21,351 nucleotides of DNA from a virus (Duplodnaviria > Heunggongvirae > Uroviricota > Caudoviricetes). Below the pieces are notes generated by a model. The model did no database searches and had not been told where the DNA came from. It saw nothing but the letters and a program-made list of their open reading frames with translations. Position 1 is the stretch's first letter; every line of letters begins with the position of its first letter. The stretch lies in the IMG/VR virus record IMGVR_UViG_2861043448_000004, positions 1-21,351 of that record. The stretch is one strand, 5' to 3'. The position numbers were made by a program, and so were the translations under genes. Below, one piece after another: positions 542 through 15,522 of the stretch.

Positions 542-1579
542 TTAACGCTTATCCGCCACCAGTTTGAGCGCGTGTTCCAGCACATTAATGTCTGCACCCG
601 CTTTATGGGCATTTTCACTTAAATAACGCCGCCACTGCCGCGCGCCAGGAATACCCTGGAACAAGCCCAACATATGCCGGGTAATATGGCCGAGATACGT
701 CCCCTGGCTGAGTTCACGCTCAATGTACGGATACATGGCGCGCACTACCGCCACTGGATCGGCATCGGTATCCGAGGAACCAAAGATCTCCCGGTCTACC
801 GCCGCCAGAATACCCGGATTCTGATACGCCTCGCGCCCGACCATCACGCCATCCATATGTTGCAGGTGTGCTTTGGCCTCTTCCAGCGACTTGATACCAC
901 CGTTAATCGACATTGTCAGATGCGGAAAGTCACGCTTCAGTTGATACACACGCGGATAATCGAGCGGCGGGATTTCACGGTTTTCTTTCGGGCTTAACCC
1001 CGAAAGCCAGGCTTTACGTGCGTGGATGATAAACATCTCACACTCGCCTTTGCCGGAAACGGTGTTGATGAAATCGCAGAGAAATTCATAGCTGTCCTGG
1101 TCATCGATGCCAATACGCGTTTTCACCGTCACTGGAATCGACACCACATCGCGCATCGCTTTCACGCAGTCGGCAACCAGCTGCGCATTACCCATCAGAC
1201 ACGCACCAAACATGCCGTTCTGCACCCGGTCAGACGGGCAGCCGACATTCAGGTTGATCTCATCATATCCACGCGCTTCTGCCAGCTTCGCACACTGTGC
1301 CAGCGCCGCCGGATCGCTACCGCCGAGTTGCAACGCTACCGGATGTTCTTCTTCACTGTACGCCAGGTAATCACCTTTACCGTGAATAATCGCCCCTGTG
1401 GTCACCATTTCGGTATACAGCAACGTATTGCGGGAAAGCAGACGCAAGAAATAGCGGCAATGTCTGTCCGTCCAGTCGAGCATAGGAGCAATGCTAAACC
1501 GAGAACTCCAGTAAGCGCCAGTTTTTTCAGGCATCACGCTGGTTTGATTAGTTTTCTGTGTTTCAGGATTATCGTGCAT
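542..1579 (-). CDS. dusA: tRNA-dihydrouridine synthase A
   Basis: 345-aa translation is collinear with E. coli DusA over the whole length (TIM-barrel Dus motifs such as [14 protein letters not shown] and [23 protein letters not shown]). The first ~30 residues differ from my recollection of the K-12 sequence, as expected if the prophage supplies a replacement 5' end. Confidence 0.9.
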
Positions 1580-1667
1580 TTTTGAACATTTCAGGCTATT
1601 TTTCTCGCGTTAGGTTCCCGCACAGGTTCCCACGCTTTATGGGAACCCGAAATAACGAGGTCGTGTA

Positions 1668-2765
1668 ATGGCGTACTATAACATAGAGAAACGACTAAAA
1701 TCCGATGGCACACCACGCTATCGCTGTAATGTGATTATCAAAGAAAAAGGTGTTATCACTTACAGGGAAAGCAAAACATTCCCTAAACATGCTCATGCCA
1801 AAACATGGGGCGCACAGAAAGTGATGGAATTAGATCTATATGGCATTCCATCATCAAATGCTGTTGACGGACTTACAGTCCGTGACTTACTACACAAATA
1901 TTTAAATGACCCAAATGCCGGAGGTAAAGCAGGCCGTACTAAAAGATATGTGCTGGAACTGCTTATGGATAGTGACATCTCCGCGATCAAACTATCTGAA
2001 CTGACAGAAAATGACGTAATTGAACATTGCAGGCTAAGAAACAACGCTGGTGCAGGCCCAGCAACAGTCAGCCACGATGTTAGTTATCTTGGCAGTGTTC
2101 TGGATGCGGCAAAACCTGTATACGGAATCAATTACACATCAAACCCGGCGAAAAGCGCTCGTCCATATCTACTTAAACTCGGTTTGATTGGTAAATCAAA
2201 CCGTCGTAATCGTAGACCAGCATCTGATGAACTGAACATGCTCATTGAAGGCCTTCAACAACGATCTACTCATAAATGCTCAAAAATTCCGTTCGTTGAT
2301 ATCCTCAAATTTTCTGTGTGGTCCTGTATGCGAATCGGAGAAGTATGCCGGTTACGATGGGAAGATCTCGACCAGGAACAAAAATCTATACTAGTAAGAG
2401 ACAGGAAAGATCCACGTAAAAAGGAAGGCAACCATATGAAAGTTGCCTTGCTTGGGGAAGCCTGGGATATCGTCCAGCGACAACCCAAAAAATCAGAATT
2501 CATTTTTCCATATAACAGCACTTCTGTTACCGCAGGATTTCAGAGGGTAAGAAGCAAATTAGGTATTAAAGATCTGAGATACCATGATTTGCGTAGAGAA
2601 GGGGCAAGTCGCTTATTTGAGGCTGGTTTTAGTATTGAGGAAGTCGCTCAGGTTACAGGGCATCGTTCATTAAACGTGCTATGGCAGGTATATACCGAAC
2701 TGTATCCGAAATCTTTACATAATCGTTTTGAAGAACTCCAAAGGAGCAGAAATAAGACCTCTTGA
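1668..2765 (+). CDS. int: Phage integrase, tyrosine recombinase (dusA-associated family)
   Basis: 365-aa ORF starting 88 bp upstream of and divergent from the dusA start; C-terminal catalytic region HDLRREGASRLFEAGFSIEEVAQVTGHRSLNVLWQVY carries the tyrosine recombinase H-x-x-R ... H ... Y signature; GAGG Shine-Dalgarno 7 nt upstream of the ATG. Confidence 0.9.
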   Translation: MAYYNIEKRLKSDGTPRYRCNVIIKEKGVITYRESKTFPKHAHAKTWGAQKVMELDLYGIPSSNAVDGLTVRDLLHKYLNDPNAGGKAGRTKRYVLELLMDSDISAIKLSELTENDVIEHCRLRNNAGAGPATVSHDVSYLGSVLDAAKPVYGINYTSNPAKSARPYLLKLGLIGKSNRRNRRPASDELNMLIEGLQQRSTHKCSKIPFVDILKFSVWSCMRIGEVCRLRWEDLDQEQKSILVRDRKDPRKKEGNHMKVALLGEAWDIVQRQPKKSEFIFPYNSTSVTAGFQRVRSKLGIKDLRYHDLRREGASRLFEAGFSIEEVAQVTGHRSLNVLWQVYTELYPKSLHNRFEELQRSRNKTS

Positions 2766-2813
2766 CACTGTTTATCCATACAGTTAAAAATAATACTGTA
2801 TACAAATACAGTG
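2762..2813 (+). promoter_or_regulatory. Sigma70-like promoter overlapped by two LexA (SOS) boxes
   Basis: TTGACA at 2762..2767; two CTGT-N8-ACAG boxes at 2768..2783 (CTGTTTATCCATACAG) and 2796..2811 (CTGTATACAAATACAG), the second a near-consensus 20-mer TACTGTATACAAATACAGTG; located immediately upstream of the dinI-like gene. Confidence 0.6.
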
Positions 2814-2825
2814 TAGGGGACTTTT

Positions 2826-3074
2826 ATGCGTATTGAAATCTGCATAGCCAAAGAAAAAATGACTAAAATGCCAACCGGTGCTGTGGATGCGTTAAAGGAA
2901 GAATTAACCCGACGCATCAGTAAACGTTATGACGATGTAGAAGTGATCGTAAAAGCCACCAGCAACGATGGCCTTTCTGTTACGCGCACCGCTGATAAAG
3001 ATTCAGCTAAAACTTTTGTTCAGGAGACTCTGAAAGATACCTGGGAGTCTGCTGACGAGTGGTTTGTTCATTAA
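2826..3074 (+). CDS. DinI-family SOS-response protein (prophage copy)
   Basis: 82-aa translation [11 protein letters not shown]...[11 protein letters not shown] resembles E. coli DinI (MRIEVTIAK...TWESADDWFV) end to end; AGGGGA Shine-Dalgarno 5 nt upstream; preceded by LexA boxes. Confidence 0.85.
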
Positions 3075-3105
3075 GTTCATCATCTCTGGACACCATTCAC
3101 TTGTA

Positions 3106-3134
3106 TTGACTTTAAGATCATTAAATTGTAATAA
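3106..3134 (+). promoter_or_regulatory. Candidate sigma70 promoter for the membrane protein-RT operon
   Basis: TTGACT at 3106..3111, 17-nt spacer, TAATAA(T) at 3129..3135; sits about 160 nt upstream of the ATG at 3297. Confidence 0.4.
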
Positions 3135-3296
3135 TTCAAAGGGATGGGGCAGGTTTTTCCTCTTGCGCATGCAAGGGCGGCTCTGATAATGAACAGTAAT
3201 ATTTTACTGTTGAGCTTATGCTCACTGATCCTGCCGGGCAGGATGTTCAACGGTTCCAATATATCCTGCCCCTTCCGCTTTTAAAAAGGATCTTTT

Positions 3297-3848
3297 ATGC
3301 ATGACAATATTTGGTTTACATATAAAGCACGTATCCAAGCGCACCATCGACTAGAATGGCTTGAAAAACACTCTCAATTTATCCTCGTTTGGTATGCTAT
3401 ATTGAGTGCGGTACTTTCAATTGTAACGTTGCGATTTCCAAAGGTTCTAGGAGATAATACAGATGTCGTTGCGGCGATACTTTCAGTGGCTCTACTGGGT
3501 ATTTCTCTGATCGTATCTAACCTAGATTTTCGTGGTCGAGCAATAGCCATGAGAAGGAATTATATTGCACTACAGCGACTCTATTTTGACATTACCACCA
3601 GTCAACAGTTATCTCTTGAACAGAAAGAAAAATATTTTAATTTGCTCAATGAGGTTGAGAATCACCGTGACATAGATGATAAAATTTCAAGGGTAACTCA
3701 AGTTGGACTTAAGACGAGGATCCCCACACAAAAAGAAAAAATAATTGTTATTTTATGGATATTACTTCGAATATTTATTACTGCCGCACTTTATATACTC
3801 CCATTAATATATCTTTGGATTGACTATGACTGCAAGCAGAATTTTTAA
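3297..3848 (+). CDS. Predicted multi-pass inner-membrane protein, partner of the reverse transcriptase
   Basis: 183-aa ORF with AGGA Shine-Dalgarno 6 nt upstream; hydrophobic helices FILVWYAILSAVLSIVTL, VVAAILSVALLGISLIVSNL and C-terminal IIVILWILLRIFITAALYILPLIYLWI; AT-rich codon usage unlike flanking genes; 3' end overlaps the RT start by 23 nt. Confidence 0.7.
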   Translation: MHDNIWFTYKARIQAHHRLEWLEKHSQFILVWYAILSAVLSIVTLRFPKVLGDNTDVVAAILSVALLGISLIVSNLDFRGRAIAMRRNYIALQRLYFDITTSQQLSLEQKEKYFNLLNEVENHRDIDDKISRVTQVGLKTRIPTQKEKIIVILWILLRIFITAALYILPLIYLWIDYDCKQNF

Positions 3849-5196
3849 AAAGTCATTCTCGAAAAAAAATCTTCTAAAAGTATACTCTGAAAAAATCAAA
3901 GAATCAGGAGCGATTGGCATAGATCGGATTCGCCCATCAAAACTTGATTTGACAATAAAAAATGAGATCACTTTCATTTTTGAAAAGGTTAATTCTGGCA
4001 ATTACAAATTTACAGCATATAAAGAAAAATTAATATCTAAAGGCGCTAACTCTACACCCAGACAGATTTCCATACCAACTGCTAGGGACAGAATTACTCT
4101 TAGAGCTCTCTGTGAATGCCTTACGGAAATATATCCTAAGTCCAGATTAAAACTACCACATACAGTAATTGACTCATTGAAAGAAGCATTAAACAACAGT
4201 CTATATGCTGAATATGCAAAAATAGATCTTAAAAGTTTCTATCCTTCAATTGAACATAAATTGATAATTAATGCAATAAAAAATAAAATTAGAAAAAAAG
4301 AAATTAGACAGTTAATAACATCATCATTAATCGTGCCTACTGTAAGTGGAACCACAGGAAGCAAAGGTATCCCTAATAATACCAGAGGAGTACCTCAGGG
4401 ATTAGCGATATCAAACATTTTAGCTGAAATATCACTATCTAATTTCGATGATGAAATCAATAAAATGCATGACATATGGTACATGCGATACGTTGATGAC
4501 ATTCTTATTTTAACACCAAAATATCAAGCAACAAAAATAGCTTCTCATATCATTGATAAGCTTCAATCATTAAATTTAAACCCACATCCATTAAATGAAG
4601 AGAACTCAAAATCCAAAGTAGGCAGTTTGGATGAAAGTTTTAACTTTTTGGGATACCACATAGAAAATCGAGAATTATTGATAAAACATGAGAGCATTCT
4701 TAGATTTGAGTCATCCTTAGCAAAAATTTTTACTGCATATAGGCACGCTCTACTACAAGCTAAAAGTAAGCGTGATAAAGAACGAGCTGTTGCATATTGT
4801 CAGTGGAAACTAAATCTCAGAATTACGGGATGTGTGTTTGAAGGTAAACGATTGGGATGGGTATCGTACTTCTCACAAATAACCTCAACAGCTCAACTTC
4901 GCTCTGTTAATCATACTATCAATAATCTTATCCGCCGATTCGGCCTTTCATCAGAAATAAAACCAAAATCTTTGATTAAAACTTTCTATGAACTCCGCAG
5001 AGGTAGAGCGGAGACTTTTAAATACATACCTAACTTTGACAATCTACATATATCTCAGAAACGAGAACTTGTTTCTATGTGGATAGGTAAAGAGAAGGAA
5101 AAAAAACTTAGCAATAGTGAAATAGAGAGGAAGTTTAAATTTAAAATTGCGAAATCAGTAAAAGAGCTTGAAGAGGATATTTCAGGAATATCATAG
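3826..5196 (+). CDS. Reverse transcriptase (defence-associated, non-retron motif pattern)
   Basis: 456 aa from the ATG at 3826 (track ORF begins at a TTG at 3820). RT motifs are all present: GIDRI, RQISIPTARDRITLRAL, YAEYAKIDLKSFYPSI, GVPQGLAISNILAEISL, YMRYVDDILIL (YVDD catalytic box), FNFLGYHI (FLG-type motif 7 rather than the retron VTG); about 170-aa C-terminal extension; AT-rich. Confidence 0.85.
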   Translation: MTASRIFKKSFSKKNLLKVYSEKIKESGAIGIDRIRPSKLDLTIKNEITFIFEKVNSGNYKFTAYKEKLISKGANSTPRQISIPTARDRITLRALCECLTEIYPKSRLKLPHTVIDSLKEALNNSLYAEYAKIDLKSFYPSIEHKLIINAIKNKIRKKEIRQLITSSLIVPTVSGTTGSKGIPNNTRGVPQGLAISNILAEISLSNFDDEINKMHDIWYMRYVDDILILTPKYQATKIASHIIDKLQSLNLNPHPLNEENSKSKVGSLDESFNFLGYHIENRELLIKHESILRFESSLAKIFTAYRHALLQAKSKRDKERAVAYCQWKLNLRITGCVFEGKRLGWVSYFSQITSTAQLRSVNHTINNLIRRFGLSSEIKPKSLIKTFYELRRGRAETFKYIPNFDNLHISQKRELVSMWIGKEKEKKLSNSEIERKFKFKIAKSVKELEEDISGIS

Positions 5197-5259: not shown

Positions 5260-5300
5260 AGCCGCAGTATCCTGCCATGGCAAGTTGCTGCGGCTTTTTA
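5260..5300 (+). terminator. Candidate intrinsic terminator after the RT gene, possibly bidirectional
   Basis: AGCCGCAG (5260..5267) pairs with CTGCGGCT (5288..5295), inner palindrome TGCCATGGCA in the loop, followed by TTTTT at 5295..5299. Confidence 0.5.
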
Positions 5301-5303
5301 TGT

Positions 5304-5597
5304 TCAACGGATCAACAGCCAGATCAGAAGACACGCTACCATCGGCACAGCAAAATCCATCAGGCTTGCCACATCCCATGCGCGTGGATCAAAACCGCCC
5401 CACCACGGCATGTTAATCCGCTTGCCATGCCCGAACATTTCAATCCAGCGATATTATGCTTGGGTGTGTTCGCCCGCAATGAAGAACGTACAACTGGCTA
5501 TCGCTCCGTAAACCCAGTTTCCGGTAAAAAGCCCCACCAGTATCTGCGCAGCCACAGCACAAAGTGCATGAAGGAAAGGTGTTATACCCATTTTCAT
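5304..5597 (-). pseudogene. Small membrane protein gene interrupted by an in-frame TAA
   Basis: Minus-strand frame reads MKMGITPFLHALCAVAAQILVGLFTGNWVYGAIASCTFFIAGEHTQA, then TAA (5454..5456), then continues in the same frame YRWIEMFGHGKRINMPWWGGFDPRAWDVASLMDFAVPMVACLLIWLLIR to a TGA at 5304..5306. Hand translation; family not recognised. Confidence 0.35.
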
Positions 5598-5603
5598 CCT
5601 ACC

Positions 5604-5627
5604 CAATAAAACGGGGCGCACAGCCCC
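5604..5627 (-). terminator. Intrinsic terminator immediately after the tail fibre stop codon
   Basis: Minus strand GGGGCTGTGCGCCCC hairpin (5613..5627) followed by GTTTTATTG; lies 7 nt downstream of the stf stop. Confidence 0.5.
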
Positions 5628-5633
5628 TTAATA

Positions 5634-8477
5634 TTATTTAGAGGCAAGCGCCGCCTCAATTGCAGATAATCTTTGTTTTAATTCTGCGTTTTCTTCTTCC
5701 AGCGCGGTAACGCGATCATCTGTTTCACGGGCGACCTGAACAAGTAAGCCCGTCACGGCGGCGTAGTCAACATTCAGATAACGTGTTTCTTCACGTAATT
5801 CATTGCCGTCAACCGTTGGTCCCTGCAACTCTTTACCGTAATGAGTGAATGAGCCTACCGCTTCCGGTATTGCCTCCATTGCTTCCTGTGCAATAACACC
5901 AGCGTAAGGCAGTCCGTTTTCCTTAAGTGTGTAGGTGTACCCGTTCATTTTACGGATAGCTTCGGTTGCGTCACTGATAATCTGAATATTGTCTTTCAGC
6001 TCGCGGTCTGATAACTGATTCAGTGTTGTACAGTTAATAGCACCGTTTACATCAAACAGCTGACCTGACGATGTTTTTTGAGCATAAAACAGATACGCGG
6101 CAGACGTTCCAACCTCAAAAACGTTTTGTCGATCACCTGAACCCCACACCTTGACAGCAAATGGTAGTTCTGTATTACCTAAGTTCTGTAAAACAAAACG
6201 ATTGCCAGTCCCTGTTTGTTTTGTAAGAGTTAAATCAACAGTTGAGTTAACCTCATCCTTGTTGATAGTGAGCGCCTGCGCTTTAGCACCGTTAACAGCA
6301 CCTGTTTTGAGTTGAACCGCGCCGTCATTACCATTTAGCAGTATCTCAGCTCCGCTAAAGAAATTTTTTAGCGACAGCATCTTACTTACGCCGACTGATG
6401 AACCCAACGCCCACGCGAGAGAATTACCGGTGCTATCAAACCCACGTACAAAGCAATCCATTTTGCTATAGTCTGACGTGCTTCCAAGGACATCAATCCG
6501 CCCTCCGCCAGATTTTATCGGGTTAGATGTGGTTAATGACCTGACAGCAAGAGCGGTAGATGAATTGAGATCGTCTACTGTTAGTAATTTCTTCCATTCC
6601 TGCGTCGTTCCATTTTCAATTGTTCTTCCCCAAAAACCGGAATTGCGGCCTCCGAACTGCACAGCATAATTTTTACTAAATTGAACATGAATGCCGCCAA
6701 GAACCATAGAGCCTGCCGGGCCGTTTGTACTGCCTGCAATTGGTCTAAATTTGTCGACGTTATCAGTATGCTGAGCGTTCCAGTCTCGTCCTGTTTTTGT
6801 AAGCAGTCCTAATGTCGTGTCGAGCGCTTCGGTTAAAGTAAGGTTTTTAAATTTAACTGCGCTACTTTCGCCAAGACTTAAGTTGTTTCGCGCATCTTCT
6901 ACTGTTGTCGCACCTGTACCTCCTTGCCCAACAGCTAATGGCAACCAGCCAGTGCCATTATGACAACCCCACAAACCAGATTTGGAAACCTGTAAGCGTG
7001 GTGCGCCTGAAGAATACGTAGAATATACGTAAGTTGTTTCTTTTCCCTCTTCAACCCTTTCTGTTGATACATCTCTCTTCCATTCAGACCAGGTACCGCT
7101 ACCTCCTTCATATATTCGTCTATAAGTAATTCCCGGATTATTATAAGGGTGGTACACCTGAACGCAGGAAGAAGCAGTGTTGGCTCTCGTTTGGAGCACT
7201 ATTAAAGCGCCCGCCAGACCGATTGGGTAATTTAATTCTTCTGTTGCGTAAGCGCTCGTTGGTTGTTGATAGAAACCAGAATATTCACCGGTAAGGGTGT
7301 TTAGGTCAGTATTAGCAAGGCCAGCTTTTTGCTCATACATTACCCGCAAGTTCGCACGTGCTTGCTCGATAGTTCTTCCACCAGTACCACCCTGGGCTAA
7401 ACCTAACGGAGACCATTGTCCAGAAGAAGAATCATAAACCCCCCAACTCCCGTTAGTATGGATTTCAAAGAAACGATCACCAGTTGGACCATACATACGA
7501 GTTGTTGATTCATTTTGACCAAAGCGGCTTAATTCATCTCTGCGGGTATGACGTATCCATTGCGGGCCAGAACTTTGGCTGTAAATGTACGAATACAATG
7601 ATTTTGTATCTGAACCAACAAATAGACCGGAATATCTTTTTGTTGACACTTCTGATCTAACTATATAACCAGAAATAAGATTATCCCCGGCACTAGACGC
7701 TACTGATGGATAACCTTTCGCTGAGATGTAAATCCTGATAAATCCAATATAACCTGATGGCTCAACAGAGATATCAGTGCAGGTCATAGCAACTTCACCA
7801 AGACCAATATTGTTACCAACAACGGATTGTGCCTGGTTGCGATAATTAAGTGCGTCCGCTGCAGATTTCGCCGCGTTTGTTTCACTGGATTTAGCATTAG
7901 TTTCGCTGCTCTTTGCTGCTGCCTCGCTATTTTTCGCGTTGGTTTCTGATTTTTTGGCTGCTGTCGCGGAGTTTGCCGATGCAGTTTGTGAGGCCGCTGC
8001 CGCCTGTGCGCTGTTATCCGCATTCGTCTCAGACGTTTTTGCGGCCTTCGCGGAATTTCCTGCCGCCGTTGCCGAAGAGGCTGCACTACTGGCGCTCGAG
8101 GCTGCGCTCGTTTCTGATGATTTCGCTGCCTCTTTTGAGGCCGCCGCATCCCGGGCTGAGGTGGCAGCTTCTGACGCTTTCGTGGTCGCGGTGGATGCAG
8201 AAGTGGCTGCAGATTTTTGTGACGCTGCAGCATTCGTTTCTGACGTTTTCGCCGCACCGGCACTGGTAGCCGCCGCGCTTTTTGAGGACTCTGCAGCGGC
8301 AGCACTTTTTGATGCTTCAGTAGCCTTTGTTGATGCCGTTCCTGCGCTGGAAGACGCTGACTGAGCCGACGTCGCGGCCTGCCCGGCTGATGTGCTGGCT
8401 GCACGTGCTGAGCCTGCAGCATCAGTCGCATGGGTTCCCAGAGCACCACGCTGGCCGACTGCTCCGCACGGGTGCAT
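5634..8477 (-). CDS. stf: Side tail fibre protein lacking its N-terminal region, with C-terminal intramolecular chaperone (peptidase S74-like) domain
   Basis: Ala/Ser-rich repeats (SARAASTSAGQAATSAQ..., KTSETNA repeats) align with the part of lambda Stf that starts around residue 150 (from memory); two GQGGTG...ARxNL collar repeats; C-terminal LSDRELKDNIQ...VDYAAVTGLLVQ with ENAELKQRL coiled coil is typical of the self-cleaving chaperone domain. The first ATG directly follows the in-frame TGA of the upstream terminase fragment. Confidence 0.75.
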   Translation of the reverse strand: MHPCGAVGQRGALGTHATDAAGSARAASTSAGQAATSAQSASSSAGTASTKATEASKSAAAAESSKSAAATSAGAAKTSETNAAASQKSAATSASTATTKASEAATSARDAAASKEAAKSSETSAASSASSAASSATAAGNSAKAAKTSETNADNSAQAAAASQTASANSATAAKKSETNAKNSEAAAKSSETNAKSSETNAAKSAADALNYRNQAQSVVGNNIGLGEVAMTCTDISVEPSGYIGFIRIYISAKGYPSVASSAGDNLISGYIVRSEVSTKRYSGLFVGSDTKSLYSYIYSQSSGPQWIRHTRRDELSRFGQNESTTRMYGPTGDRFFEIHTNGSWGVYDSSSGQWSPLGLAQGGTGGRTIEQARANLRVMYEQKAGLANTDLNTLTGEYSGFYQQPTSAYATEELNYPIGLAGALIVLQTRANTASSCVQVYHPYNNPGITYRRIYEGGSGTWSEWKRDVSTERVEEGKETTYVYSTYSSGAPRLQVSKSGLWGCHNGTGWLPLAVGQGGTGATTVEDARNNLSLGESSAVKFKNLTLTEALDTTLGLLTKTGRDWNAQHTDNVDKFRPIAGSTNGPAGSMVLGGIHVQFSKNYAVQFGGRNSGFWGRTIENGTTQEWKKLLTVDDLNSSTALAVRSLTTSNPIKSGGGRIDVLGSTSDYSKMDCFVRGFDSTGNSLAWALGSSVGVSKMLSLKNFFSGAEILLNGNDGAVQLKTGAVNGAKAQALTINKDEVNSTVDLTLTKQTGTGNRFVLQNLGNTELPFAVKVWGSGDRQNVFEVGTSAAYLFYAQKTSSGQLFDVNGAINCTTLNQLSDRELKDNIQIISDATEAIRKMNGYTYTLKENGLPYAGVIAQEAMEAIPEAVGSFTHYGKELQGPTVDGNELREETRYLNVDYAAVTGLLVQVARETDDRVTALEEENAELKQRLSAIEAALASK

Positions 8478-9890
8478 TCATTCAGTGTTTCCTGCCGGAT
8501 AGCTGGCCGGATCAATTCGCTGGCTCTCCCCGTCGCTGTCACCGCGCAATGACTGCGTGATGTTGTAACGATCAATAATCCAGCGTTCGCCACGGCTGCC
8601 ATAGCCCGTTACCTGAACCACAAAACGGCGATGACGTCCCGCCTGCACATCCACTGTCGCCACAAGGAAATTAACGCCATCCGGCACACTGCGGGAAGGA
8701 ACTGGCTCTGCCCGCTGCTCAAGCAATTCACTTTTTCGTTGCTCCATGCTGGCGCGGGGAAGATAAGGTAATCCCCAGTCGGTATTGATAACCGTCTTGA
8801 GTGTCTCTTCACTTCCGGTTGTCTCGTATTCCTGTTCTGCAGTAAGCAGTTTGTAAACGAGTTGCGAGAGTGTCTGATAAGCAGCTGCCGGCCCCTCCAT
8901 CCAGAATGACGCAATACGTGAACGCCGGGGATCACCATAACGACTGCCATCTGCATTGATGGATTCACCATCCCGTAACCAGACCCCACGTCCGTTCAGC
9001 TCGCGTTTTTGTTCAGGCAAAATCCGTCCTGAACAGGAAGGACACTGAATATAAGCCGCCTCACTTGCCAGCACAGGATCGGCAATATCACGGAAACCAG
9101 CAACCACATCGCCGCAGGGCTGAAAATACTCACCACAGTGTGGACAGGGCCAGTACCAGCGACGGCGATCGCCACGGTTATAGAGCGACAGGATCCCCGT
9201 GGTTGGTGGAGCCTCATGCGGTGAAGTCCGTCGCCATTTCACATCCTTCACATCCCTGCCGGGGGAACTCTCCACCAGCGTCATACCACTGGACATAAAT
9301 GTGGTGGTACGTTTTGAGGCAAGAGAGAAGGCATCCCCCTCACCATCAATATCTTCCGGAAAACGGTCATAATCCGTCAGCGCCACGCATTTATAATCTG
9401 ATGAAGACATGATATTGACTGACGGCCAGCCGATTTTCAGGTAGTTGCCAGCAAGGAATGTTCTGTCATAAACGTTGTTGTCATTTTTGTTCGGACTCAG
9501 GCGACTGACCACTTCCGGGCTGACGCGAAACGTTCTGGCGAGTCGTTTTTTGGAGTGTTCGCGGGCTTTTTCCTCCGTCATCTGAATGATCAGCATATCA
9601 GCAGGATCGCAAATCACGTTGTAAATCACCCAGCCGTCAATCAGGCCGATAGTCTTGCCGGTTCGTGCCGGGCCAACAAATATCACTGCGTCGTATTCAC
9701 GCGAGGCCAGGCAGTTCATAGGCTCAATAACATACGGTGCCACCAGCGGATCCCACGGGACTGAGTTCCCTGCCCCCATGGGCACCCGCATATACTGAGC
9801 AACGGCATCAGCAACCCGCATTCGTCTCGGTGCGCGAAGGATATAACCTGAATCGGTTCGTGCTGCCTTTGCGGTTTCCTGATTCAGCAT
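8478..9890 (-). pseudogene. Terminase large subunit (GpA family), C-terminally truncated
   Basis: 470 aa against about 640 in lambda gpA; contains GPARTGKT Walker-A-like motif, zinc-finger-like WPCPHCGEYFQ ... CPSCSG and WIIDRYNI resembling lambda gpA ACPHCGEE and SWLIDRQII; start overlaps the small-subunit stop (TAATG) with GGAGGAG Shine-Dalgarno; ORF ends abruptly at TGA directly abutting stf. Confidence 0.75.
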
Positions 9891-10381
9891 TACTCCTCCT
9901 GCTGTAATTCCTCCTCATCATCCGCACCTGCTTCGGTCACCCGCAGGGCTATCTGATCGCGCAGATCATCAATAATGGACTGAACACGGCTCACAGCAGC
10001 AGGCTGCAGGCCGCAGTCACGTTCCAGAATATCCGGTAATGTCTCCAGCACCTGCACGACCGCTTTTGCCCAGATGGCAAACTCCCGTCTGACATCACTG
10101 GCCGGAATGAGTTGTGCCGTTTCCTGTTCGAACTTAAGACGCTCACGTTCAGACTGATACCAGGCTTTGCGTTCATGTGGATCCATTTCGCCCTCAGCAA
10201 CCGGCGGTGGTAACCCCATAAATTCAGTCAGAATATCGGTCAACCGGTATAGCTTGAGTTTGTCATGTCCACCAGCGGGACGAATGTTTTTCAGTCTTGC
10301 CACGACAGTCTGGCGGTGCAGACCAGATAAAGCCGCCAGTTGATTAATATTCAGCACCAGGTTTTTCAACTCATGATCCAT
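9890..10381 (-). CDS. Terminase small subunit (Nu1-like, N-terminal HTH)
   Basis: 163 aa; N-terminus MDHELKNLVLNINQLAALSGLHRQTVVARLKNIRPAGG is a winged-HTH resembling lambda Nu1; GGAGG Shine-Dalgarno 4-5 nt upstream; acidic C-terminus; translationally coupled to the large subunit. Confidence 0.65.
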   Translation of the reverse strand: MDHELKNLVLNINQLAALSGLHRQTVVARLKNIRPAGGHDKLKLYRLTDILTEFMGLPPPVAEGEMDPHERKAWYQSERERLKFEQETAQLIPASDVRREFAIWAKAVVQVLETLPDILERDCGLQPAAVSRVQSIIDDLRDQIALRVTEAGADDEEELQQEE

Positions 10382-14460: not shown

Positions 14461-14693
14461 GCTGCACCTCCGAGATGCTTCATGTTTTTTCCGGAGCGAA
14501 AGGCTATAAGCGGCATACTGACGCGGTAATTACGGCCCAGCGGTTCACAAATCACCTTCTGGCATTCACGGTCAACCAGGCTAACACGTAGAACATGCCC
14601 TGCAGGTGTGGTGTACCACTGCCCAACTGTAGGAATTGATGTTTTTTTACGCTGAAGCAAACGGCAAATATTGAGGATCAACGGATTAAGCAT
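14457..14693 (-). CDS. Hypothetical small phage protein (78 aa)
   Basis: ORF with ATGA-type overlaps to both neighbours in the early-right operon; no recognised family. Confidence 0.45.
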   Translation of the reverse strand: MLNPLILNICRLLQRKKTSIPTVGQWYTTPAGHVLRVSLVDRECQKVICEPLGRNYRVSMPLIAFRSGKNMKHLGGAA

Positions 14694-15522
14694 GACGATG
14701 CCCTCCGCTGATATTCAGGAGACGGTGAATATGAAAATTAGCCTTATCCGCCAGACGAATACGTTCAGCCTGCAAGTTAAGAAGGGTTTCTACCAGAACT
14801 TGATGCGCCTGCGGATCCGAAAGAGTTACCTTGCGCAGAGCACGTAGTGCAGTTGTTACATAACTGAGTTTATGTAAGTCTTCATCATTCAGACGAGTGA
14901 GGGCTGGGACAGTAGCCATGATGGCAGCCTCCGATAACAGTGAATTACCTTCACCACCGGAAACGCCAATTTCGCTGGTGGTGAACTGAACGGGGTTGGC
15001 GTAACCGGCGTTATCGGAAACCGGCGCACCTTTCGGTGCCCCCGTCCAGCCCACCATAATTTGGGTGTGCACAGACGCAGACGATAAAAAAGACGCTGGC
15101 GCGTCATATATCGCCGATAACATTTCCAGGACGCCAATCCCGGCACCCGCTTTATAAGGTGCCTGAACAGTGTAACGTCCCGGAATGGCAGAATCAATGT
15201 GCTGGTGGTCCTTCACACTCAACAAAATCACGCCTGAATTTCCACAAAGGACTAAAGCACTCATGCGGGTAGTCTTTGCGAAGATAGATAACGCGCTGTG
15301 TTTCTGGCTCCCAACGAATAACATGGACATAAAGCCCTCTTCCGTCACGAAACCAGCGGTTAAGTTCCTGCACAACTCGCCCCCCACAGTCAGGTAAAGT
15401 TCTCTGTGGTTACTTACAGCCAGGTGATTTGGTAATCTGCATTCATGCCGTAACAACAGGTGTTCAGCGACACTGACCACCAGCTGTTGCGACAAACGGT
15501 TATTTGCCGTTAAACTGTTCAT
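14686..15522 (-). CDS. Hypothetical phage protein (278 aa), possibly YdaU-like
   Basis: Long intact ORF, translationally coupled to the upstream gene; family assignment tentative and from memory only. Confidence 0.5.
   Translation of the reverse strand: MNSLTANNRLSQQLVVSVAEHLLLRHECRLPNHLAVSNHRELYLTVGGELCRNLTAGFVTEEGFMSMLFVGSQKHSALSIFAKTTRMSALVLCGNSGVILLSVKDHQHIDSAIPGRYTVQAPYKAGAGIGVLEMLSAIYDAPASFLSSASVHTQIMVGWTGAPKGAPVSDNAGYANPVQFTTSEIGVSGGEGNSLLSEAAIMATVPALTRLNDEDLHKLSYVTTALRALRKVTLSDPQAHQVLVETLLNLQAERIRLADKANFHIHRLLNISGGHRHA

What the first reader, a model, noticed from the sequence alone, without database searches (positions are those of the whole stretch)
3106..3296. Promoter and structured 155-nt leader upstream of the RT cassette; candidate template ncRNA
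A near-consensus promoter (TTGACT-17-TAATAAT) is followed by a leader containing GGGGCAGG (3146..3153), which is exactly complementary to CCTGCCCC (3265..3272), about 110 nt downstream and 25 nt before the ATG. Between them are local hairpins CTTGC-GCAT-GCAAG (3162..3175) and ATCCTGC-CGG-GCAGGAT (3228..3244). Flanking inverted repeats around internal hairpins recall the a1/a2 architecture of retron msr-msd and the structured ncRNAs of DRT2 and DRT9, which the RT uses as template. The effector-before-RT order is known for retron Sen2, so an ncRNA-effector-RT layout is not unprecedented.
Basis: seen in the sequence. Interest (0 to 1): 0.6.

Follow-up and report, generated by a model that had tools for sequence, protein, structure and literature searches.

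The report
DRT10 defence system template RNA
The structured stretch in front of the reverse-transcriptase cassette is the small non-coding RNA of the DRT10 (UG17) anti-phage system, whose short loop is copied again and again into tandem-repeat DNA; it is real and conserved, but it was described in 2025-2026.

Summary
The genes downstream are a SLATT_5 protein (3297-3848) and a UG17 reverse transcriptase (3826-5196). This makes the locus a DRT10 defence system.

The leader is the DRT10 ncRNA, about 3142-3278. It has a basal stem SL1, four internal hairpins SL2-SL5 and two loops. A model built from it finds the same RNA upstream of SLATT in all 27 fetched loci whose RT is at least 50% identical. 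All five helices covary: 24 of 37 pairs show compensatory changes and 96% of cells pair.

Loop B (3245-3264) carries the A-B-A' pattern CAA-CGGUUC-CAA. The window is 98% identical over 211 nt to the allele whose loop B matches the published Eco3DRT10 template. That system makes protein-primed, telomerase-like (GAATCATTG)n DNA. The window differs at two template bases, so I predict (GAACCGTTG)n.

Novelty: already known (Tang et al. 2025; Sanchez-Nieto et al. 2026; Ramirez et al. 2026). The RNA is not annotated in RefSeq and is absent from Rfam.

The parts
3106..3135 (+). Sigma-70-type promoter: -35 TTGACT at 3106-3111, TG extension at 3127-3128, -10 AATAAT at 3130-3135.
   Evidence: Scan gives 10 of 12 matches with a TG extension. 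A -10-like hexamer lies at the same distance upstream of the ncRNA in nearly all 27 homologous loci. The implied start, about 7 nt downstream, is about 3142.
3142..3278 (+). DRT10 (UG17) ncRNA of the Eco3 type, about 137 nt. The ends are inferred by homology.
   Evidence: Published Eco3 residue numbers (U15, U43, G44, U62, U64, G86, G104, U105-U106, C107, U110, G111, C116, A117, U119, A120-U123) all fall on the matching bases if nt 1 = 3142. Model R1 scores 188 bits here and E = 1e-11 to 1e-36 in 27 other loci.
3142..3153 (+). SL1 5' arm: GGA at 3142-3144 plus GGGGCAGG at 3146-3153. It pairs with 3265-3276.
   Evidence: MFE fold. 9 of 11 pairs show compensatory changes and 97% of cells pair. 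The unfitted alignment recovers the helix.
3160..3177 (+). SL2 hairpin.
   Evidence: 7 pairs, 3 of them compensatory, 95% of cells paired. The C3166U change in the IHE3034 allele keeps the pair as U-G.
3178..3191 (+). Loop A, CGGCUCUGAUAAUG. The sequence is highly conserved. It is the second, non-repetitive template site.
   Evidence: The sequence is nearly invariant across loci. U43/G44 of Eco3 correspond to 3184/3185. The Eco3 loop A gives only a short product of about 10 nt (10.64898/2026.06.29.735271).
3192..3211 (+). SL3 hairpin, AT-rich.
   Evidence: 8 pairs, 7 of them compensatory, 97% of cells paired.
3212..3223 (+). SL4 hairpin, GAGC-UUAU-GCUC.
   Evidence: 4 pairs, 2 of them compensatory, 97% of cells paired.
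3227..3245 (+). SL5 (3228-3244), the template-boundary hairpin, flanked by G3227 and G3245. These correspond to G86 and G104, which form a Hoogsteen pair in Eco3.
   Evidence: 7 pairs, 3 of them compensatory. Both G's and the UU linker are invariant in 22 of 22 sequences. The boundary role was shown for Eco3.
3245..3264 (+). Loop B, the template loop: GUUCAACGGUUCCAAUAUAU.
   Evidence: It lies between SL5 and the SL1 3' arm. 19 of 21 distinct homologous loops carry a CAA...CAA repeat at period 9-11, against a mean of 1.9 in shuffles.
3248..3256 (+). Predicted template A-B = CAACGGUUC. The predicted cDNA repeat is 5'-GAACCGTTG-3'.
   Evidence: This is the position of the Eco3 template CAAUGAUUC (C107-C115). 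It differs at 3251 (U to C) and 3253 (A to G).
3257..3260 (+). Predicted realignment segment A' = CAAU. C3257 corresponds to C116, the first templated base in Eco3.
   Evidence: The fourth base of A (C) no longer matches A' (U), which gives a dG:rU wobble on realignment. Fourth-base mismatches were tolerated in Eco3.
3265..3276 (+). SL1 3' arm: CCUGCCCC at 3265-3272 plus UCC at 3274-3276.
3297..3848 (+). SLATT_5 two-transmembrane effector gene. Its ribosome-binding site AAGGA lies at 3286-3290.
   Evidence: PADLOC RTasSLATT 1.5e-56 and Pfam SLATT_5 1.3e-28. RefSeq annotation in identical loci.
3826..5196 (+). UG17 reverse transcriptase, 456 aa. It overlaps SLATT by 23 nt. YVDD is at residues 222-225 and the C-terminal residue is Ser456.
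   Evidence: PADLOC RT_UG17 1.2e-158. Translation. S456, R371, K385 and Y388 are invariant in an 18-sequence alignment. The same protein is listed in Table S1 of Tang et al..
5613..5627 (.). GC-rich hairpin, terminator-like on both strands, between the cassette and the convergent tail-fibre gene.
   Evidence: It is a consensus match only.

Best explanation
Region 3106-3296 is the promoter and non-coding RNA of a DRT10 (UG17 RT + SLATT) anti-phage system of the Eco3 type.

Transcription from the TTGACT / TG-AATAAT promoter starts at about 3142. The first roughly 137 nt (3142-3278) fold into a basal stem SL1 (GGGGCAGG/CCUGCCCC plus GGA/UCC), which closes a ring of four hairpins (SL2-SL5) and two single-stranded loops.

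The following steps are inferred by homology to Eco3DRT10:

1. Two RT monomers bind one RNA.
2. The monomer on loop B starts DNA synthesis from the hydroxyl of its own C-terminal Ser456, opposite C3257.
3. It copies CAACGGUUC (3248-3256) up to the boundary set by SL5 and the G3227-G3245 anchor.
4. The nascent 3' end then unpairs and re-anneals on the downstream CAA(U) at 3257-3260.
5. The cycle repeats, giving kilobase-long single-stranded (GAACCGTTG)n covalently attached to the RT, in a telomerase-like way.
6. Host ExoI (SbcB) keeps this DNA in check. During infection, changed ssDNA metabolism is thought to let the product activate the SLATT membrane effector and abort the infection.

Shown here: the gene identities, the conserved covarying RNA fold, the conserved promoter position, the A-B-A' pattern, and near-identity to the allele that matches published Eco3.

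Inferred from the literature: priming, the repeat product, the stoichiometry, the SbcB control and SLATT activation.
For: Gene content:
- RT_UG17 at 1.2e-158 and RT-associated SLATT at 1.5e-56. SLATT_5 and RVT_1 in Pfam.
- An RT and SLATT agreeing with the window's over every stretch shown are listed in Tang et al. Table S1 with the ncRNA flag TRUE.

Fold and conservation:
- Fold of -59 kcal/mol, z = -4.1.
- Model R1 finds the RNA at the same place and on the same strand upstream of SLATT in all 27 loci with RT at least 50% identical, from Xenorhabdus, Photorhabdus, Buttiauxella, Pseudomonas, Stutzerimonas, Stenotrophomonas and Bordetella. E-values run from 1e-11 to 1e-36.
- Covariation: 96.3% of cells paired against about 50% when partners are slid. 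24 of 37 pairs have changes on both sides. 118 compensatory cells against 4-15 in slid controls. All five helices covary.
- An independent MAFFT + RNAalifold run gives the same five helices, with 18 of 35 pairs compensatory.

Template:
- 19 of 21 distinct loop B sequences carry the A-B-A' pattern at the fixed offset, against 1.9 expected.
- The IHE3034 allele, 98.1% identical over 211 nt, carries CAAUGAUUC-CAAU. That is the published Eco3 template, whose cDNA is GAATCATTG.
- Every published residue number that I checked maps correctly.
- G86/G104 and the UU linker are invariant. RT residues S456, R371, K385 and Y388 are invariant.

Promoter:
- The promoter position is conserved across loci.
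Against: - No experiment exists for this exact allele. Its product, (GAACCGTTG)n, is a prediction.
- Equating the IHE3034-type allele with the laboratory Eco3DRT10 rests on the matching template and about 20 matching numbered residues. I could not see a deposited sequence, because the Eco3 rows and Table S9 were truncated in the stored supplement.
- The window allele has an imperfect A/A' match (CAAC against CAAU). It also has an overlapping 4-nt repeat, GUUC...GUUC, at period 8. Register or precision could therefore differ from Eco3.
- The homologous sequences are related, so shuffle controls overstate significance.
- Whether the RNA is released from the SLATT-RT leader or separately terminated is unknown. 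No terminator lies between it and SLATT.
- The two groups disagree on whether cDNA rises or falls on infection.
Confidence: 0.93

Rival explanations
1. A retron-like msr-msd RNA. The flanking inverted repeat would act as a1/a2, and the RT would prime from a branching guanosine 2'-OH to make a single-copy branched msDNA.
For: There is a superficial likeness: a terminal inverted repeat encloses internal hairpins. Some database entries name the homologous RTs 'retron-type'.
Against: The RT's best match is UG17, not a retron model. The partner is a SLATT protein. The C-terminal Ser456 is invariant, and in Eco3 the DNA is linked to protein and insensitive to RNase. The product in the sister allele is a 9-nt tandem repeat, not a copy of a long msd. 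The loop carries a conserved A-B-A' pattern.
Confidence: 0.02
2. Only a cis-acting 5' leader, such as an attenuator or a translational control element for SLATT-RT. In this reading the structure regulates expression and is not a template.
For: The RNA lies in the 155-nt leader, ends 18 nt before the SLATT ATG, and has no terminator between itself and SLATT. A 9-bp alternative hairpin (3236-3244 with 3263-3271) followed by a U-rich tract exists in E. coli.
Against: The alternative hairpin is not conserved: 55% of cells pair, no better than shuffled or slid controls. The five-helix fold, loop A and the A-B-A' pattern are conserved instead. In Eco3 the RNA co-purifies with the RT and suffices with RT and dNTPs for repeat synthesis. 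In a UG17-A system the ncRNA complements in trans.
Confidence: 0.03
3. A DRT9-type ncRNA whose loop templates a homopolymer (poly-dA) rather than a tandem repeat.
For: Tang et al. say the DRT10 and DRT9 ncRNAs resemble each other. The RT has a weak secondary match to Drt9, 7e-20.
Against: Loop B has no poly-U template. No poly-dA was detected for a DRT10 system. The RT is UG17, not UG28.
Confidence: 0.01
4. Chance inverted repeats in an AT-rich intergenic spacer next to a fortuitous promoter-like match.
For: An 8-bp inverted repeat occurs in 17% of shuffles. Promoter-like hits are near the expected number.
Against: Fold z = -4.1. The covariation and positional conservation span genera whose RTs are only 50-84% identical.
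Confidence: 0.01

Closest known systems
Eco3DRT10 ncRNA (Tang et al. 2025, PMC12632851; Ramirez et al. 2026, 10.64898/2026.06.29.735271)
   Same: Same family and same clade. Shared features: a five-stem-loop ring, loop A, a G-G anchor at the base of SL5, a UU 5' linker, an AUAU 3' linker, a 9-nt template followed by CAA(U), a 456-aa RT ending in Ser456, and an overlapping SLATT gene. The window is 98.1% identical over 211 nt to the E. coli allele that carries the published template.
   Different: There are four substitutions. Two of them lie in the 9-nt template (3251 U to C, 3253 A to G), so the predicted repeat is GAACCGTTG rather than GAATCATTG. The fourth base of A no longer matches A'. 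The window's version of the 44-nt stretch covering loop B is the commoner one in complete E. coli genomes: 153 of 187 carriers, against 34 of the Eco3 type. As far as the three papers show, it has not been tested.
UG17-A DRT10 of Escherichia sp. E3659 (Sanchez-Nieto et al. 2026, 10.64898/2026.04.29.721553)
   Same: An ncRNA-SLATT-RT tripartite module. The basal stem SL1 is essential, the ncRNA has its own promoter, and the cDNA is a tandem repeat.
   Different: That RNA is 143 nt with six predicted stem-loops and templates a 7-nt AGTAATA repeat from two ACU motifs. Models are reported to work only within subtypes. In line with this, R1 found nothing in the alphaproteobacterial UG17 loci.
DRT9 (UG28) ncRNA
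   Same: A structured ncRNA upstream of the RT. A template loop follows a stem-loop, and DNA synthesis is protein-primed.
   Different: DRT9 copies a poly-U tract into poly-dA homopolymer, primes from tyrosine, and has no SLATT partner.
Telomerase RNA / TERT
   Same: A short internal template with a downstream alignment segment (A'), a structured 5' template-boundary element, and repeat-addition processivity. Tang et al. draw this analogy.
   Different: DRT10 primes from a protein rather than a chromosome end. One pseudo-symmetric RNA binds two RTs. Its role is defence, not end maintenance.
Retron msr-msd
   Same: A terminal inverted repeat encloses internal hairpins upstream of an RT cassette that includes an effector.
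   Different: Retrons prime from a branching G 2'-OH and copy the msd once into msDNA. Their RT clade is different, and they have no A-B-A' pattern.

Membership tests
DRT10 (UG17) defence system | Reverse transcriptase of the UG17 group with an intact YVDD catalytic motif | tested here: met
   PADLOC RT_UG17 at 1.2e-158, full length. RYVDD is at residues 221-225 and invariant.
DRT10 (UG17) defence system | Adjacent, tightly coupled SLATT (SLATT_5) two-transmembrane effector gene | tested here: met
   Pfam SLATT_5 at 1.3e-28 and PADLOC RTasSLATT at 1.5e-56. The gene overlaps the RT start by 23 nt (3826-3848).
DRT10 (UG17) defence system | [quoted passage not shown] | tested here: met
   Found in all 27 fetched loci with RT at least 50% identical. 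24 of 37 pairs are compensatory. The unfitted alignment agrees.
DRT10 (UG17) defence system | [quoted passage not shown] | tested here: met
   CAA-CGGUUC-CAA at 3248-3259, 3 nt after SL5. 19 of 21 distinct homologous loops show it, against 1.9 expected.
DRT10 (UG17) defence system | Conserved C-terminal priming residue (Ser456 in the Eco3 type) and RNA-anchoring residues R371, K385 and Y388 | tested here: met
   All four are invariant in the 18-sequence alignment spanning 59-84% identity. Their chemical role could not be tested here.
DRT10 (UG17) defence system | [quoted passage not shown] | not testable with these tools
   Shown for Eco1-3 and six other homologues. For this allele it is predicted only, as (GAACCGTTG)n.
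DRT10 (UG17) defence system | Phage defence that requires the RT, SLATT and the ncRNA | not testable with these tools
   Shown for Eco3 and the E3659 system.
Retron (msr-msd + RT) | Retron-clade RT and an msr with a conserved branching G next to the a1/a2 repeats | tested here: not met
   The RT is classed as UG17, not a retron. In Eco3 the DNA is linked to protein and not to RNA. The loop carries A-B-A' rather than a long msd.
Rfam families | Match to any curated RNA family at the gathering score | tested here: not met
   There is no hit in 3050-3350 beyond noise, E at least 0.19. The DRT10 ncRNA is not in Rfam 15.

The most novel reading that the evidence does not exclude
The window's loop B may make a different or less uniform product than the laboratory Eco3 system. 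Its 44-nt stretch covering loop B is the commoner version in complete E. coli genomes (153 of 187 carriers). Both of its internal template substitutions are natural. They leave an imperfect A/A' match (CAAC against CAAU) and create a second overlapping 4-nt register, GUUC-AACG-GUUC, with period 8. If repeat sequence or precision affects how easily SLATT is triggered, or which phages are sensed, then natural template polymorphism would tune DRT10 rather than being neutral. A related weak hint: across 14 distinct predicted repeat units, self-complementarity is lower than in composition-matched shuffles (68 against 81.8; the units are not independent). This suggests selection to keep the product single-stranded.
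Probability: 0.1. Interest if true: 0.45.

Novelty: already known. Interest (0 to 1): 0.2.

Why it matters
The finding is correct and biologically rich. This small RNA both scaffolds two reverse transcriptases and templates telomerase-like repeat DNA for phage defence. The system, its RNA, its template logic and its structure were published in 2025-2026, and this RT/SLATT pair is already in the published dataset.

Three practical points remain:

- The RNA is not annotated in RefSeq genomes and has no Rfam family, so genome scans will keep rediscovering it.
- The commoner E. coli version of the template differs from the one studied. That gives a direct, cheap prediction: (GAACCGTTG)n.
- The window shows the system retained next to the integrase of a decayed dusA-integrated prophage.

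Tried and rejected
1. Loop A to loop B pairs in the single-sequence MFE (3179-3180 with 3256-3257; 3183-3185 with 3251-3253). They do not covary: 80% of cells pair, no better than shuffles (481 of 500 shuffles reach the observed value), and RNAalifold does not predict them. Rejected.

2. Alternative 9-bp hairpin, GGGCAGGAT at 3236-3244 with ATCCTGCCC at 3263-3271. It arises because SL1 and SL5 share GGCAGG/CCUGCC in E. coli, and could have been an attenuator or switch. Only 55% of cells pair in homologues, equal to the controls. Rejected as a conserved feature.

3. The idea that the two template substitutions (U to C, A to G) are compensatory and preserve an AAY-G-RUU palindrome in the template or product. 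The observed 6 of 9 self-pairing is reached by 53-70% of shuffled units. Rejected.

4. Rfam, at gathering score and at permissive E-values. No family matched.

5. Looking up the Eco3 ncRNA sequence, strain and A-B-A' tables in the supplement of Tang et al. The Eco3 rows of Table S2 and Tables S3-S9 are truncated in the stored copy. I inferred identity from the template and the residue numbering instead.

6. ORF-based location of SLATT starts in homologues. This was unreliable because of alternative start codons. I replaced it with the WFTYKAR motif anchor and then the covariance model.

7. Model R1 found nothing in the alphaproteobacterial UG17 loci with 31-35% RT identity. This fits the reported subtype-specific ncRNAs and was not pursued.

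Full report
**1. The observation**

- TTGACT lies at 3106-3111 and TAATAAT at 3129-3135. The scan scores the promoter as TTGACT-18-AATAAT with a TG extension, 10 of 12 matches.
- GGGGCAGG at 3146-3153 is exactly complementary to CCTGCCCC at 3265-3272.
- The hairpins lie at 3162-3175 and 3228-3244.

On their own these are weak evidence. At least one 8-bp inverted repeat occurs in 17% of shuffles of 3106-3296. Promoter-like matches are near the expected number, 15 found against 10.9 expected.

The whole leader, however, folds far better than chance: -59 kcal/mol, z = -4.1, and 0 of 200 shuffles fold as well. The fold is a long basal stem enclosing four hairpins. The other two lie at 3192-3211 and 3212-3223.

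**2. The genes**

- ORF 3297-3848 is a SLATT_5 two-transmembrane protein (Pfam 1.3e-28; PADLOC RT-associated SLATT 1.5e-56).
- The next ORF is a UG17 reverse transcriptase (PADLOC RT_UG17 1.2e-158, full length).
- RefSeq annotation of identical E. coli loci places the RT start at the ATG at 3826. This gives a 456-aa protein that overlaps SLATT by 23 nt and ends ...EEDISGIS.

UG17 + SLATT is the system now called DRT10.

**3. What is published**

Tang et al. (bioRxiv, October 2025, PMC12632851) reported the following.
- DRT10 is tripartite: ncRNA, SLATT and RT.
- RIP-seq of Eco3DRT10 showed a 137-nt ncRNA upstream of SLATT.
- A covariance model from 307 homologues gave a large central stem-loop decorated with four smaller ones.
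- The RT makes protein-primed (Ser456) tandem repeats of 5'-GAATCATTG-3'. These are copied from a 9-nt segment of the template loop that follows SL5.
- An A-B-A' pattern (CAAU-GAUUC-CAAU) lets the nascent DNA realign, as in telomerase.

Sanchez-Nieto et al. (April 2026) defined subtypes UG17-A, -B and -C with subtype-specific ncRNAs. They also showed that the basal stem SL1 is essential, that the ncRNA complements in trans, and that host SbcB restrains toxicity.

Ramirez et al. (June 2026) solved cryo-EM structures. Two RTs bind one pseudo-symmetric RNA. Loop A gives only a short abortive product. The template window is set geometrically between the SL5 and SL1 anchors. The anchor elements are the G86-G104 Hoogsteen pair contacted by R371, the 5' linker U105-U106, the 3' linker A120-U123, and RT residues K385 and Y388.

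**4. Placing the window in that framework**

The 211-nt region 3090-3300 occurs in 187 of 5,426 complete E. coli genomes at 95% identity or more. It is always chromosomal. Only the SLATT CDS is annotated under the match.

Aligning representative alleles shows that the IHE3034-type allele is 98.1% identical to the window and carries GUUCAAUGAUUCCAAUAUAU in loop B. That is the published Eco3 template followed by A'.

If Eco3 nt 1 is set to window 3142, every published residue number I could check falls on the right base:
- U15, U62 and U64 fall in the two U-tracts.
- U43 and G44 fall in loop A.
- G86 and G104 flank SL5, followed by U105-U106.
- C107, U110, G111, C116, A117 and U119 fall in the template and A'.
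- A120-U123 map to AUAU at 3261-3264.

The stretches of the RT and SLATT sequences shown from Table S1 of Tang et al. (UG17_locus_495, ncRNA flag TRUE) agree with the window's proteins.

The window differs from the Eco3-type allele at four bases:
- 3141, just upstream of nt 1.
- 3166 in SL2, where C-G becomes U-G in the other allele and the pair is kept.
- 3251 and 3253, both inside the 9-nt template.

The window's template is therefore CAACGGUUC (3248-3256) with A' = CAAU (3257-3260). The predicted product is (GAACCGTTG)n. On realignment the fourth base would form a dG:rU wobble. Fourth-base mismatches were tolerated in Eco3.

The window-type loop B is the commoner one: 153 of 187 carriers are identical over 3239-3282, and 34 carry the two-mismatch version.

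**5. Independent test of the structure**

A protein search gave a graded series of RT homologues from 84% to 59% identity. An 18-sequence alignment shows that S456, R371, K385, Y388 and YVDD are invariant.

A scan of one genome per species returned 44 loci. I built covariance model R1 from four E. coli alleles and the five-stem-loop structure.
- R1 found one strong hit (E = 1e-11 to 1e-36) in every one of the 27 loci with RT at least 50% identical. The loci come from Xenorhabdus, Photorhabdus, Buttiauxella, Pseudomonas, Stutzerimonas, Stenotrophomonas, Bordetella and an uncultured proteobacterium.
- Each hit lies on the RT strand, just upstream of SLATT.
- R1 found nothing in the alphaproteobacterial loci with 31-35% identity.

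On the model-fitted alignment, 96.3% of cells form standard pairs, against 49-57% when partners are slid by 1-3 columns. 24 of 37 pairs show changes on both sides. There are 118 compensatory cells, against 4-15 in the slid controls. Every helix covaries.

That alignment leans towards the model, so I repeated the test with plain MAFFT + RNAalifold on 22 distinct sequences. The same five helices came out, with 18 of 35 pairs compensatory. For example, column pair 10/142 reads GC 12, AU 6, GU 4, and pair 14/138 reads AU 16, GC 5.

The flanking G-G and the UU linker are invariant in 22 of 22 sequences.

**6. The template loop**

Loop B begins with a conserved GUUCAA. In 19 of 21 distinct loop sequences the CAA at loop positions 4-6 recurs 9-11 nt downstream. 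Between the two copies the B segment varies in sequence and length (CGGUUC, UGAUUC, CGGUACU, AUGUACU, AGGUUACU and others). Shuffling the variable part gives a mean of 1.9 and a maximum of 7 in 2,000 trials.

The two exceptions are L009 and L015/L016. They may use 2-nt repeats or another register.

The window, L005, L030 and L028/L029 also have a GUUC...GUUC repeat at period 8 starting at the anchor G. By the geometric-boundary model this register should not be used, but that is untested.

**7. Promoter and leader**

In nearly all 27 loci a -10-like hexamer lies 3-6 nt upstream of the model start. The variants are TAGAAT, TAAGAT, TAAAAT, TATAAT, TACAGT and TACTCT, with AATAAT, CATACT and TATAAA in the enterobacterial loci. 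The hexamer is often preceded by TG. This places the start at about model position 5, which is 3142 and agrees with the Eco3 5' end.

The RNA ends 12-30 nt before the SLATT ribosome-binding site, with no terminator between. The RNA is therefore physically part of the SLATT-RT leader. How the discrete species is produced is not settled here.

**8. Alternatives examined**

- The loop A to loop B pairs of the single-sequence MFE are not supported by covariation.
- The E. coli-specific 9-bp alternative hairpin, 3236-3244 with 3263-3271, is not supported either.
- The idea that the two template substitutions are compensatory for a palindrome fails a shuffle test. If anything, the predicted repeat units are depleted in self-complementarity: 68 against 81.8, nominal P about 0.002, with units that are not independent.
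- No Rfam family matches.
- The retron, pure cis-leader, DRT9-type and chance readings are each contradicted by the evidence above.

**9. Context**

The cassette sits between a dusA-adjacent tyrosine integrase plus a DinI-like gene and a convergent tail-fibre gene. The prophage is lambdoid and appears defective.

**10. Verdict**

The interpretation as a template ncRNA for the RT is supported. The retron analogy is not.

The element is the DRT10 (UG17) ncRNA of the Eco3 type, so it is already known. What this analysis adds is an independent confirmation of the fold, the finding that the commoner E. coli template differs from the studied one, and a specific product prediction. Interest is low for discovery purposes (0.2), although the biology is remarkable.

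Noticed in passing
window 14974-15162 (-): Rfam matches above the gathering score to C4 antisense RNA (82.8 bits) and isrK Hfq-binding RNA (63.7 bits). They lie side by side inside or next to ORF 14686-15522 (PHROG transcriptional regulator). This looks like a P1/P7-type antirepressor-control module in the prophage immunity region.
   Followed up: no
window 5634-10381 (-): The prophage looks defective. A 470-aa ORF matches only positions 332-754 of the 1,330-position large-terminase profile. Its stop codon abuts the start of the 947-aa tail-fibre gene (8477/8478). No portal, capsid or tail genes lie between them, which suggests a large internal deletion. The small terminase lies at 9890-10381.
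   Followed up: partly
window 542-3074; loci L001-L004: The cassette has two chromosomal contexts in E. coli. In the window and AR434 the order is dusA - tyrosine integrase - DinI-like - ncRNA - SLATT - RT. In IHE3034, MS6192 and 01G17 the order is prfC - DinI-like - ncRNA - SLATT - RT, with no integrase on that side. DinI is frameshifted in MS6192 and 01G17.
   Followed up: no
window 3153 (allele in L001 and L003): In the MS6192-type allele, which the spread sample suggests is roughly 70 genomes, G3153 is U. This breaks the innermost SL1 pair (U opposite C3265). The same allele also differs in the SL2 loop (3168), and MS6192 itself differs in the SL5 loop (3237).
   Followed up: no
window 3146-3153, 3228-3244, 3263-3272: In E. 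coli, SL1 and SL5 are built from the same words (GGCAGG and AUCCUGCC), so alternative pairings of up to 9 bp are possible. The alternative 9-bp hairpin is not conserved in other genera. Probably because the hairpins are palindromic, model R1 also scores 26 bits on the opposite strand.
   Followed up: yes
window 5277-5609 (+) / about 5304-5591 (-): The 110-aa plus-strand ORF after the RT has no Pfam, PADLOC or PHROG match. RefSeq instead annotates a minus-strand hypothetical gene here. That gene is a pseudogene with an internal stop in the genome whose ncRNA region is identical (AR434). The region is probably decayed sequence rather than part of the system.
   Followed up: partly
loci L031-L046: UG17-like RTs from alphaproteobacteria (31-35% identity; Sphingomonas, Phaeobacter, Sulfitobacter and others) gave no hit to the Eco3-type RNA model. 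This fits the reported subtype-specific ncRNAs. I did not examine their upstream regions.
   Followed up: no
loop B of L009 (1809-1950) and of L015/L016: Two loop B variants lack the CAA...CAA pattern: GUUCACACUUUCUCUAAUCU and GUUCUAAGAUGACUCAAACCCG. They may use 2-nt A/A' repeats, a shifted register, or be inactive.
   Followed up: no
predicted repeat units across loci (A5 loop B): The 14 distinct predicted repeat units have less antiparallel self-complementarity than composition-matched shuffles: summed best pairing 68 against 81.8, nominal P about 0.002. The sequences are related, so this is only a hint that the products are kept single-stranded.
   Followed up: partly
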